The notes beneath the pieces are model-generated. The model had not been told where the DNA came from and ran no database searches. It saw only the letters and a list, made by a program, of their open reading frames with translations. Shown in pieces: positions 1 through 1,987 of a DNA stretch of 1,987 nt. The first letter of the stretch is position 1; every line of letters starts with the position of its first letter. The stretch comes from Escherichia coli (lineage in GTDB: Bacteria > Pseudomonadota > Gammaproteobacteria > Enterobacterales > Enterobacteriaceae). Location of the stretch: assembly GCF_003334385.1 (NCBI RefSeq), contig NZ_QOWN01000103.1; one strand, given 5' to 3'. A program made the translations under genes and the position numbers.

Positions 1-471
1 TGGTGGCTGGTCTGCCGGGGGACGATTCATAAGTTCCGCTGTGTGCCGCATCTCACCGGGCGGCGCTTTGAGCACGGGGTGACGGACTGTTACACGCTGT
101 TCCGGGATGCTTATCATCTGGCGGGGATTGAGATGCCGGATTTTCATCGCGGGGATGACTGGTGGCGTCACGGTCAGAATCTCTATCTTGACAATATGGA
201 GGCGACTGGTTTTTACCGTGTCGCACTGACAGAGGCGCAGCCTGGCGACGTGCTGCTGTGCTGCTTTGGTTCATCGGTGCCGAATCATGCCGCCATTTAC
301 TGTGGTGACGGCGAGCTGCTGCACCATATTCCTGAACAACTGAGTAAACGAGAGAGGTATACCGACAAATGGCAGCGACGCACACACTCCCTCTGGCGTC
401 ACCGGGCATGGCGCGCATCTGCCTTTACGGGGATTTGCAACGATTTGGCCGCCGCATCGACCTTCGTGTGA
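1..471 (+). CDS. K: Phage tail tip assembly protein K (gpK-like), C-terminal part only; 5' end lies upstream of the window. The portion present looks like an NlpC/P60-type peptidase domain.
   Basis: Frame 1 is open from base 1 to the TGA at 469-471 (translation begins WWLVCRGTIHKFRCVPHLTGRRFEHGVTDCYTLF... and ends ...NDLAAASTFV). The ORF track's start at 43 is a GTG inside this frame, not the true start. The translation matches my recollection of the lambda gpK C-terminus. A Cys in a D-C-Y context (codon 88-90) and a His in an N-H-A-A-I-Y context (codon 286-288) fit NlpC/P60 catalytic motifs. Lies immediately upstream of I and J, as in lambda. Confidence 0.9.
   Translation, partial: WWLVCRGTIHKFRCVPHLTGRRFEHGVTDCYTLFRDAYHLAGIEMPDFHRGDDWWRHGQNLYLDNMEATGFYRVALTEAQPGDVLLCCFGSSVPNHAAIYCGDGELLHHIPEQLSKRERYTDKWQRRTHSLWRHRAWRASAFTGICNDLAAASTFV
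350..357 (+). promoter_or_regulatory. Possible purine-rich ribosome binding site for I, lying inside the K coding sequence
   Basis: GAGAGAGG at about 350-357, roughly 11 nt upstream of the I ATG at 369. The spacing is slightly long, and initiation may instead depend on coupling to K translation. Confidence 0.3.
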
Positions 472-1040
472 AAACGGGGGCTGAAGCCATCCGCGCACTG
501 GCCACACAGCTCCCGGTGTTTCGTCAGAAACTGAGCGACGGCTGGTATCAGGTACGGATTGCCGGGCGGGACGTCAGCACGTCCGGGTTAACGGCGCAGT
601 TACATGAGACTCTGCCTGATGGCGCTGTGATTCATATTGTTCCCAGAGTCGCCGGGGCCAAGTCAGGTGGCGTATTCCAGATTGTCCTGGGGGCTGCCGC
701 CATTGCCGGATCATTCTTTACCGCCGGAGCCACCCTTGCAGCATGGGGGGCAGCCATTGGGGCCGGTGGTATGACCGGCATCCTGTTTTCTCTCGGTGCC
801 AGTATGGTACTTGGTGGTGTGGCGCAGATGCTGGCACCGAAAGCCAGGACGCCCACGGCAGCAAGTACAGATAACGGCAAACAGAACACCTATTTCTCCT
901 CACTGGATAACATGGTTGCCCAGGGCAATGTTCTGCCCGTTCTGTACGGTGAAATGCGCGTGGGGTCGCGGGTGGTCTCTCAGGAGATCAGCACGGCAGA
1001 CGAAGGGGATGGTGGTCAGGTTGTGGTGATTGGTCGCTGA
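369..1040 (+). CDS. I: Phage tail tip assembly protein I (gpI-like), complete, 223 aa
   Basis: ATG at 369-371, TGA at 1038-1040, 223 codons. Translation MAATHTLPLASPGMARICLYGDLQRFGRRIDLRVKTGAEAIRALATQLP... matches my recollection of lambda gpI in sequence and length. Overlaps the 3' end of K by 103 nt in a different frame, as in lambda. N-terminal ~90 aa is charged/mixed (reported ubiquitin-like fold in gpI), followed by a long Gly/Ala-rich hydrophobic stretch. Confidence 0.95.
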   Translation: MAATHTLPLASPGMARICLYGDLQRFGRRIDLRVKTGAEAIRALATQLPVFRQKLSDGWYQVRIAGRDVSTSGLTAQLHETLPDGAVIHIVPRVAGAKSGGVFQIVLGAAAIAGSFFTAGATLAAWGAAIGAGGMTGILFSLGASMVLGGVAQMLAPKARTPTAASTDNGKQNTYFSSLDNMVAQGNVLPVLYGEMRVGSRVVSQEISTADEGDGGQVVVIGR

Positions 1041-1057
1041 TGCAAAACATTTTATGT

Positions 1058-1086
1058 GAAACCGCCTGCGGGCGGTTTTGTCGTTT
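1058..1086 (+). terminator. Intergenic GC-rich hairpin followed by a T-rich tract; possible intrinsic terminator or mRNA stabilising / processing structure between I and J
   Basis: Perfect inverted repeat AAACCGCC (1059-1066) and GGCGGTTT (1071-1078) with a 4-nt loop TGCG (1067-1070), followed by TTTTGTCGTTT. An A-rich run (TGCAAAACATTTTATGTGAAA) precedes it. The stem is only 8 bp with 5 GC pairs and the T-tract is interrupted, so terminator strength is uncertain. Confidence 0.35.
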
Positions 1087-1100: not shown

Positions 1101-1987
1101 ATGGGTAAAGGCAGCAGTAAGGGGCATACCCCGCGCGAAGCGAAGGACAACCTGAAGTCCACGCAGCTGCTGAGTGTGATCGATGTCATCAGCGAAGGGC
1201 CGATTGAAGGTCCGGTGGATGGATTAAAAAGCGTGCTGCTGAACAGTACGCCGGTGCTGGACAGTGAGGGGAATACCAATATCTCCGGCGTCACGGTGGT
1301 GTTCCGGGCAGGTGAGCAGGAGCAGACGCCGCCGGAGGGCTTTGAATCCTCCGGTTCCGAGACGGTGCTGGGTACGGAAGTGAAATACGACACGCCGATT
1401 ACCCGGACCATCACGTCTGCAAACATCGACCGTCTGCGCTTTACCTTCGGTGTGCAGGCACTGGTGGAAACCACCTCAAAGGGGGACCGGAATCCGTCGG
1501 AAGTCCGCCTGCTGGTTCAGATACAGCGTAACGGTGGCTGGGTGACGGAAAAAGACATCACCATTAAAGGCAAAACCACCTCACAGTATCTGGCATCGGT
1601 GGTGGTGGGTAACCTGCCGCCGCGCCCGTTCAATATCCGGATGCGCAGGATGACGCCGGACAGCACCACAGATCAGCTGCAGAACAAAACGCTCTGGTCG
1701 TCATACACCGAAATCATCGATGTGAAACAGTGCTACCCGAACACGGCACTGGTCGGCGTACAGGTGGATTCGGAGCAGTTCGGCAGCCAGCAGGTGAGCC
1801 GTAATTATCATCTGCGCGGGCGTATTCTGCAGGTGCCGTCGAACTATAACCCGCAGACGCGGCAATACAGCGGTATCTGGGACGGAACGTTTAAGCCAGC
1901 ATACAGCAATAACATGGCCTGGTGTCTGTGGGATATGCTGACCCATCCACGCTACGGCATGGGGAAACGTCTTGGTGCGGCGGATGT
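1101..1987 (+). CDS. J: Phage tip attachment / host specificity protein J (gpJ-like), N-terminal 295 aa only; 3' end lies downstream of the window
   Basis: ATG at 1101-1103, preceded by GGAG at 1089-1092 with an 8-nt spacer. Frame stays open to the window end. Translation MGKGSSKGHTPREAKDNLKSTQLLSVIDVISEGPIEGPVDGLKSVLLNSTPVLD... matches my recollection of the lambda gpJ N-terminus. Position directly after I with a 60-nt spacer matches lambda. Confidence 0.95.
   Translation, partial: MGKGSSKGHTPREAKDNLKSTQLLSVIDVISEGPIEGPVDGLKSVLLNSTPVLDSEGNTNISGVTVVFRAGEQEQTPPEGFESSGSETVLGTEVKYDTPITRTITSANIDRLRFTFGVQALVETTSKGDRNPSEVRLLVQIQRNGGWVTEKDITIKGKTTSQYLASVVVGNLPPRPFNIRMRRMTPDSTTDQLQNKTLWSSYTEIIDVKQCYPNTALVGVQVDSEQFGSQQVSRNYHLRGRILQVPSNYNPQTRQYSGIWDGTFKPAYSNNMAWCLWDMLTHPRYGMGKRLGAAD

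What the first reader, a model, noticed from the sequence alone, without database searches (positions are those of the whole stretch)
1..1040. K (JAB + NlpC/P60 peptidase-like) paired with I (ubiquitin-like N-terminal domain): possible ubiquitin-like processing pair in tail assembly
The K portion in the window carries NlpC/P60-like catalytic motifs (Cys codon 88-90, His codon 286-288). gpI is reported to have a ubiquitin-like beta-grasp N-terminal domain. I recall comparative-genomics work proposing that gpK and gpI form a ubiquitin-like conjugation or deconjugation pair in tail assembly, but I cannot verify the citation here. The biochemical role remains incompletely defined, so this is the most biologically interesting aspect of the window even though it is not new.
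Basis: partly seen in the sequence, partly recalled or inferred. Interest (0 to 1): 0.4.

Follow-up and report, generated by a model that had tools for sequence, protein, structure and literature searches.

The report
Lambda tail genes K and I
This is the well-known phage lambda tail-tip gene pair K (a two-headed peptidase that never enters the virus particle) and I (a tail-tip plug made with a ubiquitin-like domain at its front); the idea that K clips that domain off was published in 2006, fits all newer data, but has still not been tested directly.

Summary
Window 1-471 encodes the C-terminal 156 residues of lambda-type gpK, 369-1040 encodes gpI, and 1101-1987 starts gpJ. The DNA is 96-98% identical to E. 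coli lambdoid phages and prophages.

The K fragment matches Pfam NLPC_P60 (5.6e-13). The named Cys (88-90) and His (286-288) codons are real and invariant in 19 diverse K homologues, as is a third His (325-327). The JAB metal site lies upstream of the window. I confirmed it only in full-length homologues.

The recalled citation is Iyer, Burroughs and Aravind 2006, which predicted that K's JAB domain cleaves I after the ubiquitin-like domain.

Newer work fits this. The C-terminal part of gpI is the tip plug in virions, with density starting at residue 101. gpK is absent from virions. In an F-pyocin homologue the N-terminal region is removed during maturation by an unknown protease.

K as that protease remains inferred, at about 0.55. 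Verdict: real, ordinary, already known, with an open and testable biochemical question.

The parts
1..471 (+). 3' part of gene K (tail tip assembly protein K). It encodes residues 92-247 of a 247-aa protein; the stop codon is 469-471.
   Evidence: Translation. 96.6% nt identity to PhiR42_1, where the gene is annotated 'tail tip assembly protein K'. RefSeq prophage copies are annotated 'C40 family peptidase'.
58..399 (+). NlpC/P60 (papain-like, C40) peptidase domain of K, fragment residues 20-133.
   Evidence: Pfam PF00877, E 5.6e-13, full model length. A weak TIGR02219 phage_NlpC_fam hit lies below its cut-off.
88..90 (+). Catalytic Cys codon (TGT; C121 of full-length K, motif G-x-x-D-C).
   Evidence: Read directly. 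Invariant in 19 of 19 homologues.
286..288 (+). Catalytic His codon (CAT; H187 of full-length K, motif N-H-A).
   Evidence: Read directly. Invariant in 19 of 19 homologues.
322..327 (+). His-His codons (H199-H200 of full-length K). H200 is the probable third member of the Cys-His-His triad.
   Evidence: H200 is invariant and H199 is at least 90% conserved in alignment A3. The spacing after H187 is typical of NlpC/P60 enzymes; this last point is from my own knowledge.
369..471 (+). 103-nt stretch that codes in two frames: the K C-terminal tail in frame 1 and the first 34 residues of I in frame 3.
   Evidence: ORF list. The upstream ATG and its Shine-Dalgarno sequence are conserved in the Stx phage locus L019, where the internal Met14 codon is CTG.
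369..1040 (+). Gene I (tail tip assembly / 'insertion' / plug protein), 223 aa plus stop.
   Evidence: phmmer to PDB chain 8iyk_I (lambda gpI), E 1.9e-138; four differences from lambda (A50V and R162-I-Q to T-A-A).
408..659 (+). Ubiquitin-like beta-grasp domain of gpI (residues 14-97), MoaD/ThiS/SAMP type.
642..671 (+). Flexible tail of the Ub-like domain, P92-R-V-A-G96-A-K-S-G100-G101. This is the predicted processing site.
   Evidence: P92 is invariant, G96 is present in 43 of 45, residue 97 is mostly A/S/G, and G101 is present in 35 of 45 and in at least 85% of the 20 aligned sequences (19 loci plus the window). The tail is disordered in the AF2 model. Lambda cryo-EM density for gpI starts at residue 101 (PMC11101478).
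672..824 (+). Gly/Ala-rich hydrophobic helices H1 and H2 of gpI (about residues 102-152).
   Evidence: Sequence. Described as predicted transmembrane helices in PMC11101478 and PMC10721106. G108, G143 and G150 are invariant.
843..1037 (+). Plug (residues 159-175) and C-terminal beta-strands of gpI. In the virion they form a trimer in the tip lumen, bind gpJ by beta-sheet augmentation and hold the C-terminus of gpH.
   Evidence: Structures 8IYK, 8K35, 8XCG and 9E7M found by sequence.
1058..1079 (+). 9-bp G+C-rich hairpin (AAACCGCC-TGCG-GGCGGTTT) followed by a U-rich run, in the I-J spacer.
   Evidence: RNA fold centroid. Conserved in PhiR42_1, with the only change lying in the loop. Not called by the terminator scan. 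No Rfam match.
1101..1987 (+). 5' part of gene J (central tail fibre / host specificity protein); it runs off the window.
   Evidence: NCBIfam NF049904 lambda_TipJ, 3.3e-197 over residues 1-295.

Best explanation
The window holds the K-I-J segment of a lambda-type tail gene cluster.

**gpI is made as a precursor with two parts.**
- The front part is a MoaD/SAMP-type ubiquitin-like domain (residues 14-96) ending in a flexible glycine-containing tail (G96...G100-G101).
- The back part consists of two very hydrophobic helices, a plug and beta-strands. [quoted passage not shown]

**gpK is a non-structural enzyme with two peptidase heads.** One is a JAMM/JAB zinc peptidase (upstream of the window). 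The other is a papain-like NlpC/P60 domain (in the window).

**Most likely mechanism.**
1. The ubiquitin-like domain keeps the hydrophobic plug soluble and/or shields the docking site while gpI loads onto the gpJ trimer.
2. K's JAMM head then cuts the linear peptide bond at the glycine tail, somewhere between G96 and V102, and releases the ubiquitin-like domain.
3. Only then can the tip take up gpH and gpM, after which K leaves.

**Shown here or in the literature:**
- the domain identities;
- conservation of both active sites and of the glycine tail;
- near one-to-one co-occurrence of K and I;
- absence of K from particles;
- the Ub-like part of gpI is unresolved in virion structures, and in a homologue the N-terminal region is absent from mature particles by mass spectrometry.

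**Inferred:**
- that K is the protease;
- the exact cleavage site;
- the shield or chaperone role of the Ub-like domain;
- what the NlpC/P60 head cuts.
For: **Domains**
- NLPC_P60 5.6e-13; Lambda_tail_I 1.8e-28.
- Full-length K has Prok-JAB 6.1e-13 plus NLPC_P60 7.3e-12.

**Fold of the gpI front part**
- AF2 pLDDT 83.5.

**The matching enzyme type**
- A K profile hits MPN proteins 2kcq and 2kks (about 1e-11).
- It also hits P. furiosus JAMM1 (5lda/5ld9, 1.6e-7). From my own knowledge this is the archaeal peptidase that removes SAMP modifiers.

**Active sites are maintained**
- E19, H68-S-H70, D81, C121, H187 and H200 are invariant in 19 K proteins down to 28% identity.

**The substrate tail is maintained**
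- P92 invariant, G96 in 43 of 45, G101 in 35 of 45.

**Coupling of the two genes**
- K lies upstream of I in 19 of 19 diverse loci.
- Across 50,697 phage records, gpI matches 1746 and the K NlpC part matches 1749, with the same genus distribution.

**Literature**
- The prediction: PMC1779556.
- gpI 135-223 or 101-223 forms the tip plug, with the N-terminal domain unseen; gpI is found in virions by mass spectrometry and gpK is not (PMC10721106, PMC11101478, PMC12617516).
- In T1 the I homologue gp34 is in the tip, and gp35, which by its number should be the K homologue, is not listed among the tip proteins (PMC11945409).
- In F-pyocin, the N-terminal region of PA0640 is present in stalled precursors and absent from mature particles. 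Its protease is unknown. The K homologue PA0639 is non-structural and required for the tip (bioRxiv 10.64898/2026.02.24.707460).
Against: - No experiment links K's catalytic residues to gpI cleavage.
- In lambda itself, absence of the N-terminal domain from maps may only reflect flexibility. The virion mass spectrometry lists gpI but gives no peptide coverage in the text I read.
- Recombinant PA0640 lost its N-terminal region in E. coli without its K homologue. Host proteases can therefore do it, or the linker is simply labile.
- Residue 97 is not always small (R or H in some phages), and G100 is variable. The site is therefore not a strict Gly-Gly.
- The model does not explain why a second peptidase head with a conserved active site is kept.
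- The JAB part of K is not in the window.
Confidence: 0.55

Rival explanations
1. K is a peptidase but gpI is not its substrate. The Ub-like domain is a non-cleaved flexible module, or is trimmed by host proteases. [quoted passage not shown]
For: The protease for gpH to gpH* is explicitly unknown (PMC12617516). PA0640 loses its N-terminal region in E. coli without PA0639. The NlpC/P60 head has a fully conserved triad with no assigned substrate.
Against: JAMM peptidases and MoaD/SAMP-type Ub-like proteins are a validated enzyme-substrate pairing, and both members are present here. K and I co-occur about 1:1. gpH cleavage occurs late, after tube assembly, when K is no longer detectable in the structure.
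Confidence: 0.22
2. The JAB head of K is mainly an anti-defence deubiquitinase. It strips host Bil-type ubiquitin-like proteins from the central tail fibre gpJ. The Ub-like domain of gpI is a decoy or is unrelated.
For: Hor et al. showed Bil conjugates its Ubl to the central tail fibre. They speculated that DUB domains in siphophage tail assembly proteins counter it (bioRxiv 10.1101/2023.09.04.556158).
Against: K and its F-pyocin homologue are needed for tip assembly in hosts with no Bil system reported. The JAB and Ub-like pair is conserved in cis across very diverse phages. Neither protein matches PADLOC models. This could be a secondary activity, not the primary one.
Confidence: 0.1
3. The NlpC/P60 domain of K is a virion-borne cell-wall hydrolase that cuts peptidoglycan during DNA injection, as some annotations imply ('tail fiber cell wall hydrolase', 'peptidase P60', 'C40 family peptidase').
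For: NlpC/P60 enzymes are typically peptidoglycan endopeptidases. The K profile weakly hits MepS, Spr and CwlO. Annotations appear in phi80 and others.
Against: gpK is not detected in lambda virions by mass spectrometry and is not resolved in any tail structure. Lambda virions are reported to lack such an enzyme. The F-pyocin K homologue is absent from particles. The hit to the NCBIfam phage cell-wall peptidase model is far below its cut-off (22.8 versus 81.9 bits).
Confidence: 0.05
4. True ubiquitin-like conjugation: after release, the Ub-like domain of gpI is activated and attached covalently to a tail protein.
For: The C-terminal glycine is conserved, as in MoaD, ThiS and SAMP. Iyer et al. 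raise interactions or thiolation as a possibility.
Against: No E1-like or E2-like gene is annotated in the tail-gene stretches of the 16 annotated loci examined. No extra density or mass on tail proteins is reported.
Confidence: 0.03

Closest known systems
Phage lambda gpK / gpI (TAPK / TAPI of Iyer, Burroughs and Aravind 2006; PDB 8IYK, 8K35, 8XCG, 9E7M for gpI)
   Same: Essentially the same genes. gpI differs from lambda gpI at 4 of 223 residues. The DNA is 96-98% identical to lambdoid phages and prophages. It has the same 103-nt K/I overlap and the same K-I-J order.
   Different: Only allelic differences: A50V, and R162-I-Q to T-A-A in the plug region. The window lacks the first 91 codons of K.
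Archaeal SAMP1/SAMP2 with JAMM1 desampylase (PDB 5LDA/5LD9, 2L52, 3PO0)
   Different: No E1 or conjugation step. The Ub-like domain is made already fused in front of its 'target', so only a linear peptide bond would be cut. The peptidase carries a second, papain-like head.
F-pyocin PA0640 / PA0639 (P. aeruginosa; PDB 25VF)
   Same: PA0640 is a gpI homologue (E 1.8e-17). Only its C-terminal part is in the particle, and its N-terminal region is removed between the precursor tip and the mature particle. PA0639 is the K homologue, non-structural and essential.
   Different: It is a tailocin, not a phage. The authors did not connect the cleavage to a JAB/Ub-like pair, and the protease is unassigned.
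Bil (bacterial ISG15-like) defence system
   Same: Ub-like protein chemistry aimed at the same structure, the central tail fibre and tip of siphophages, and it includes a JAB-type DUB.
   Different: Host-encoded, uses E1 and E2, conjugates to lysines and blocks assembly. Neither K nor I matches PADLOC models.
NlpC/P60 peptidoglycan endopeptidases (MepS/Spr, CwlO, RipC)
   Same: Same fold family and the same Cys-His-His catalytic residues.
   Different: Only weak sequence similarity (E about 1e-3). There is no signal peptide or cell-wall-binding module (my own reading of the sequence, no predictor run), and the protein is not found in virions. A peptidoglycan substrate is therefore unlikely.

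Membership tests
NlpC/P60 (Pfam PF00877, MEROPS C40) | Significant match to the family profile over the whole domain | tested here: met
   E 5.6e-13, model positions 1-105 of 105, fragment residues 20-133.
NlpC/P60 (Pfam PF00877, MEROPS C40) | Catalytic Cys, His and a third polar residue (His) present and conserved | tested here: met
   C121, H187 and H200 (window codons 88-90, 286-288, 325-327) are invariant in 19 homologues.
NlpC/P60 (Pfam PF00877, MEROPS C40) | Hydrolytic activity and identity of the substrate | not testable with these tools
   No biochemical data found.
JAB/MPN+ (JAMM) metallopeptidase (Pfam PF14464 Prok-JAB) | Profile match and the E...H-x-H-x7-S-x2-D zinc motif | tested here: inconclusive
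   Met in full-length K of PhiR42_1 (6.1e-13; E19, H68-S-H70, S78, D81) and in 18 other K proteins. The motif lies upstream of the window, which starts at K residue 92, so it cannot be read for this copy.
Lambda_tail_I (Pfam PF06805) | Profile match | tested here: met
   E 1.8e-28, residues 14-97, model positions 2-83 of 83. PHROG 32 'tail assembly protein' 9.9e-83.
Ubiquitin-like beta-grasp, MoaD/ThiS/SAMP branch | Beta-grasp fold | tested here: met
Ubiquitin-like beta-grasp, MoaD/ThiS/SAMP branch | Conserved glycine at the C-terminal end of the domain | tested here: met
   G96 in 43 of 45. G101 in 35 of 45 and in at least 85% of the 20 aligned sequences (19 loci plus the window). P92 invariant.
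Ubiquitin-like beta-grasp, MoaD/ThiS/SAMP branch | Activation by an E1-like adenylating enzyme, or sulphur-carrier or conjugation chemistry | tested here: not met
   No E1-like or E2-like gene is annotated in the stretches of about 2.5 kb on each side of I in the 16 annotated loci. The window itself holds only K, I and J. The pair is therefore not a member of a conjugation system and resembles only the deconjugation half.
Ub-like / JAB processing pair (Iyer et al. 2006, 'phage tail assembly associated Ub') | Ub-like TAPI next to TAPK (JAB + NlpC/P60) and TAPJ | tested here: met
   K-I-J order in the window. K with both domains lies upstream of I in 19 of 19 loci. 1746 versus 1749 phage records.
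Ub-like / JAB processing pair (Iyer et al. 2006, 'phage tail assembly associated Ub') | K-dependent cleavage of I at the glycine tail | not testable with these tools

The most novel reading that the evidence does not exclude
gpK is a two-headed maturation protease that sets a checkpoint in tail assembly. Its JAMM head removes the ubiquitin-like domain from the plug precursor gpI, which licenses the tip to dock the tape measure. Its papain-like head performs the still unassigned cleavage of the tape measure gpH to gpH*. As a side effect, the JAMM head can also strip host Bil ubiquitin-like tags from the tail fibre.
Probability: 0.1. Interest if true: 0.7.

Novelty: already known. Interest (0 to 1): 0.3.

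Why it matters
The K/I pair is one of the few places where ubiquitin-type protein chemistry appears inside a virus assembly line, in the best-studied phage of all. The role of gpK has been open since the 1970s.

If K's JAMM head is the enzyme that removes the front domain of gpI, three things follow:
- it would explain why K is essential yet never found in particles;
- it would identify the 'unknown protease' of the F-pyocin proteolytic checkpoint;
- it would give a bacterial-virus example of a ubiquitin-like domain used as a removable assembly chaperone.

None of this is new as an idea. The value of this window is only that it is a clean, typical copy.

Tried and rejected
- **Single-sequence AlphaFold of full gpI.** It gave a poor model (pLDDT 46). 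I replaced it with a domain model built on a 43-sequence alignment.
- **The search for related loci with the 45-sequence gpI alignment.** I used tblastn against the phage collection and 18 annotated loci instead.
- **Programmed -1 frameshift joining K to I.** Many database proteins carry PF00877 plus PF06805, and PHROG 28576 is such a fusion. I rejected the idea for three reasons: the junctions differ from protein to protein, the clusters are mostly singletons, and I saw no slippery heptamer in 369-471 by eye. These are indels or sequencing errors.
- **Internal ATG 408 (Met14) as the true start of I.** Most distant homologues begin there. But in the lambda-like Stx phage that codon is CTG, and the upstream ATG with its Shine-Dalgarno sequence is conserved. 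I therefore kept 369 as the start.
- **Defence-system membership.** No PADLOC hit.
- **Structured RNA.** No Rfam hit.
- **Promoters and terminators.** The scan gave nothing above shuffles.
- **K-I complex prediction.** Not attempted, because the structure tool returns no inter-residue contacts.

Full report
**What is in the window.**

The 1987-bp window has three genes on the + strand.
- Frame 1 is open from base 1 to a stop at 469-471.
- A 223-codon ORF runs from 369 to 1040.
- A third ORF starts at ATG 1101 and runs off the end.

Megablast finds the whole window at 96.6% identity in Escherichia phage PhiR42_1. There the three genes are annotated tail tip assembly proteins K and I and host specificity protein J. 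The window is also found at up to 98.2% identity in E. coli prophages, and some match is present in 4510 of 5426 complete genomes. The I product differs from lambda gpI (PDB 8IYK chain I) at four residues. The J fragment matches NCBIfam lambda_TipJ at 3.3e-197. This is an ordinary lambdoid K-I-J segment.

**Checking the observation.**

The K fragment matches Pfam NLPC_P60 over the full model at 5.6e-13. Codon 88-90 is TGT (Cys in the motif VTDCY). Codon 286-288 is CAT (His in PNHAAIY).

I fetched 18 further loci from phages of Mannheimia, Klebsiella, Ralstonia, Burkholderia, Serratia, Rhizobium, Pseudomonas, Moraxella, Vibrio and Erwinia, plus phi80 and T1-like phages. In all 19 loci an ORF upstream of I is a K homologue that covers both halves of the protein.

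In the alignment of these 19 proteins (28-85% identity) the two named residues are invariant, as C121 and H187 in full-length numbering. A third histidine, H200 (window codon 325-327), is invariant too, which completes a Cys-His-His triad.

The JAB part needs a correction. The window starts at K residue 92, so the zinc motif is not in it. In full-length K of PhiR42_1 the motif is intact (E19, H68-S-H70, S78-x-x-D81). Pfam Prok-JAB matches at 6.1e-13, and E19, H68, S69, H70 and D81 are invariant across the 19 proteins.

**gpI.**

Residues 14-97 match Pfam Lambda_tail_I at 1.8e-28. A single-sequence AlphaFold run was poor. With a 43-sequence alignment, the domain model reached pLDDT 83.5 with a beta-beta-alpha-beta-beta-(alpha)-beta layout and a disordered tail.
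- Foldseek against the PDB puts a MoaD-related protein, MoaD, SAMP1 and CysO on top (TM 0.65-0.71).

The 'ubiquitin-like beta-grasp' statement is therefore correct, and more precisely the domain belongs to the MoaD/ThiS/SAMP branch.

Behind the last strand lies a conserved tail, I-V-P92-x-V-x-G96-A-K-x-G-G101.
- P92 is invariant in 45 diverse homologues.
- G96 is present in 43 of 45.
- G101 sits directly before the first hydrophobic helix. It is present in 35 of 45, and in at least 85% of the 20 aligned sequences (19 loci plus the window).

After the tail come Gly/Ala-rich hydrophobic helices and a conserved C-terminal region.

**The citation and the state of knowledge.**

It identifies the Ub-like domain in 'TAPI' and the JAB plus NlpC/P60 architecture of 'TAPK'. 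[quoted passage not shown] It also says TAPI is not in the mature tail, which is now outdated.

Newer structural and proteomic work:
- **Lambda cryo-EM.** A gpI trimer (residues 135-223, or 101-223 in the best closed-state map) plugs the tip lumen. It binds gpJ by beta-sheet augmentation and holds the C-terminal coiled coil of gpH. The N-terminal domain is never seen (PMC10721106, PMC11101478, PMC12617516).
- **Virion mass spectrometry.** It finds gpI but not gpK.
- **T1.** The I homologue gp34 is in the tip, and gp35 is not listed among the tip proteins (PMC11945409). By its number, gp35 should be the K homologue.
[quoted passage not shown] The K homologue PA0639 is non-structural and required for the tip. 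The cleavage mechanism 'remains to be elucidated'. That paper does not mention the JAB/Ub-like idea.
- **Bil defence system.** Hor et al. noted that DUB domains in siphophage tail assembly proteins are unexplained and might counter Bil.

I found no paper that tests K's catalytic residues.

**How it most likely works.**

The two proteins look like an enzyme and its substrate of a kind validated elsewhere.
- A profile of the 19 K proteins hits MPN-family proteins at about 1e-11, and the P. furiosus JAMM1 desampylase at 1.6e-7.
- The gpI domain resembles SAMP1.
- Both active sites of K, and the glycine tail of I, are kept across very distant phages. This argues for catalysis rather than a dead scaffold.
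- The genes travel together. tblastn finds gpI in 1746 of 50,697 phage records and the K NlpC/P60 part in 1749, with matching genus counts. The shorter JAB query finds 1408. I attribute the lower count to sensitivity, because Klebsiella Webervirus K proteins missed by that query do carry the motif.

My best model, at confidence about 0.55, is as follows.
1. gpI is a precursor whose Ub-like domain keeps the hydrophobic plug soluble or shields the docking surface.
2. K's JAMM head cuts between G96 and V102 once gpI sits on gpJ.
3. The Ub-like domain and K then leave.

The order J, I, L, K in the classical in vitro complementation work would fit this. That order is from my own recollection of Katsura's studies and I did not verify it here.

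The role of the NlpC/P60 head is not explained. A peptidoglycan role at infection is unlikely because K is not in particles. A role in gpH processing is an open possibility, since that protease is unknown.

**Caveats.**
- Missing density is not proof of cleavage in lambda.
- PA0640 lost its N-terminal region in E. coli without its K partner.
- The tail is not a strict Gly-Gly.
- The JAB domain of this particular copy is outside the window.

**Other checks.**
- The 103-nt K/I overlap is real in the lambda-like group. The upstream ATG and its Shine-Dalgarno sequence are conserved in an Stx phage whose Met14 codon is CTG. Most other phages have K and I abutting or overlapping by a few bases. Six of the 19 have 268-1680 bp inserted between them.
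- K-I fusion proteins in databases have different junctions and are indel artefacts, not a programmed frameshift.
- There are no PADLOC or Rfam matches.

**Verdict.**

Nothing in this copy departs from lambda. It is already known. The interest is modest (0.3) and rests on the open, directly testable question of whether K is the gpI-processing protease.

Noticed in passing
window 1058-1079 (plus the U-rich run to about 1089): A 9-bp G+C-rich hairpin followed by GUCGUUUAU sits in the 60-nt I-J spacer, just before the J ribosome-binding site. It is conserved in PhiR42_1, with the only change in the loop. A T1-like phage (AHS24) has an annotated rho-independent terminator at the same place (L017 3029-3055). 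It could be a terminator or attenuator, or an mRNA-stability element inside the late operon.
   Followed up: partly
window 369-471: K and I overlap by 103 nt in different frames. K's C-terminal tail (SAFTGICNDLAAAS) is conserved as a peptide ([LS]-x-[FL]-x-G-I-x-N/E-D-[IL]) in Mannheimia, Erwinia and Serratia phages. In the Mannheimia and Serratia phages K does not overlap I, so both reading frames appear to be under selection in the lambda-like overlap.
   Followed up: partly
window 369-407; P0121-P0270: Most distant gpI homologues start at the residue equivalent to Met14. The 13-residue N-terminal extension (MAATHTLPLASPG) is specific to the lambda-like group. RefSeq annotations split between 223-aa and 210-aa versions (clusters P0006 and P0012).
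   Followed up: partly
L008 1933-2505, L012 1953-2473, L013 1779-2401, L015 2114-2464, L016 828-2421, L002 2373-2498: In 6 of 19 phages, extra genes sit between K and I. They include small hypothetical ORFs, reverse-strand genes, an anti-repressor-like DNA-binding protein, a KilA-N protein and a zinc-ribbon protein. The K-I junction therefore seems to be a tolerated insertion point for moron-like cargo.
   Followed up: no
window 852-860 (gpI residues 162-164) and 516-518 (residue 50): The only differences from lambda gpI are A50V and R162-I-Q to T-A-A. The latter lies inside the 'plug' segment (159-175) that closes the tail tube.
   Followed up: no
proteins P0010, P0013, P0015, P0017, P0019, P0036 and others; PHROG 28576 and 35166: Public databases hold many K-I (NlpC/P60 + Lambda_tail_I) and JAB-I fusion proteins. 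Their junctions fall at different codons of the overlap, so they look like independent indels or sequencing errors, yet two PHROG families have been built on them.
   Followed up: yes
PMC11101478 discussion: That paper speculates that the unseen N-terminal part of gpI might be the missing peptidoglycan-cleaving enzyme. The fold found here (a MoaD/SAMP-type beta-grasp with no catalytic motif) makes that unlikely.
   Followed up: partly
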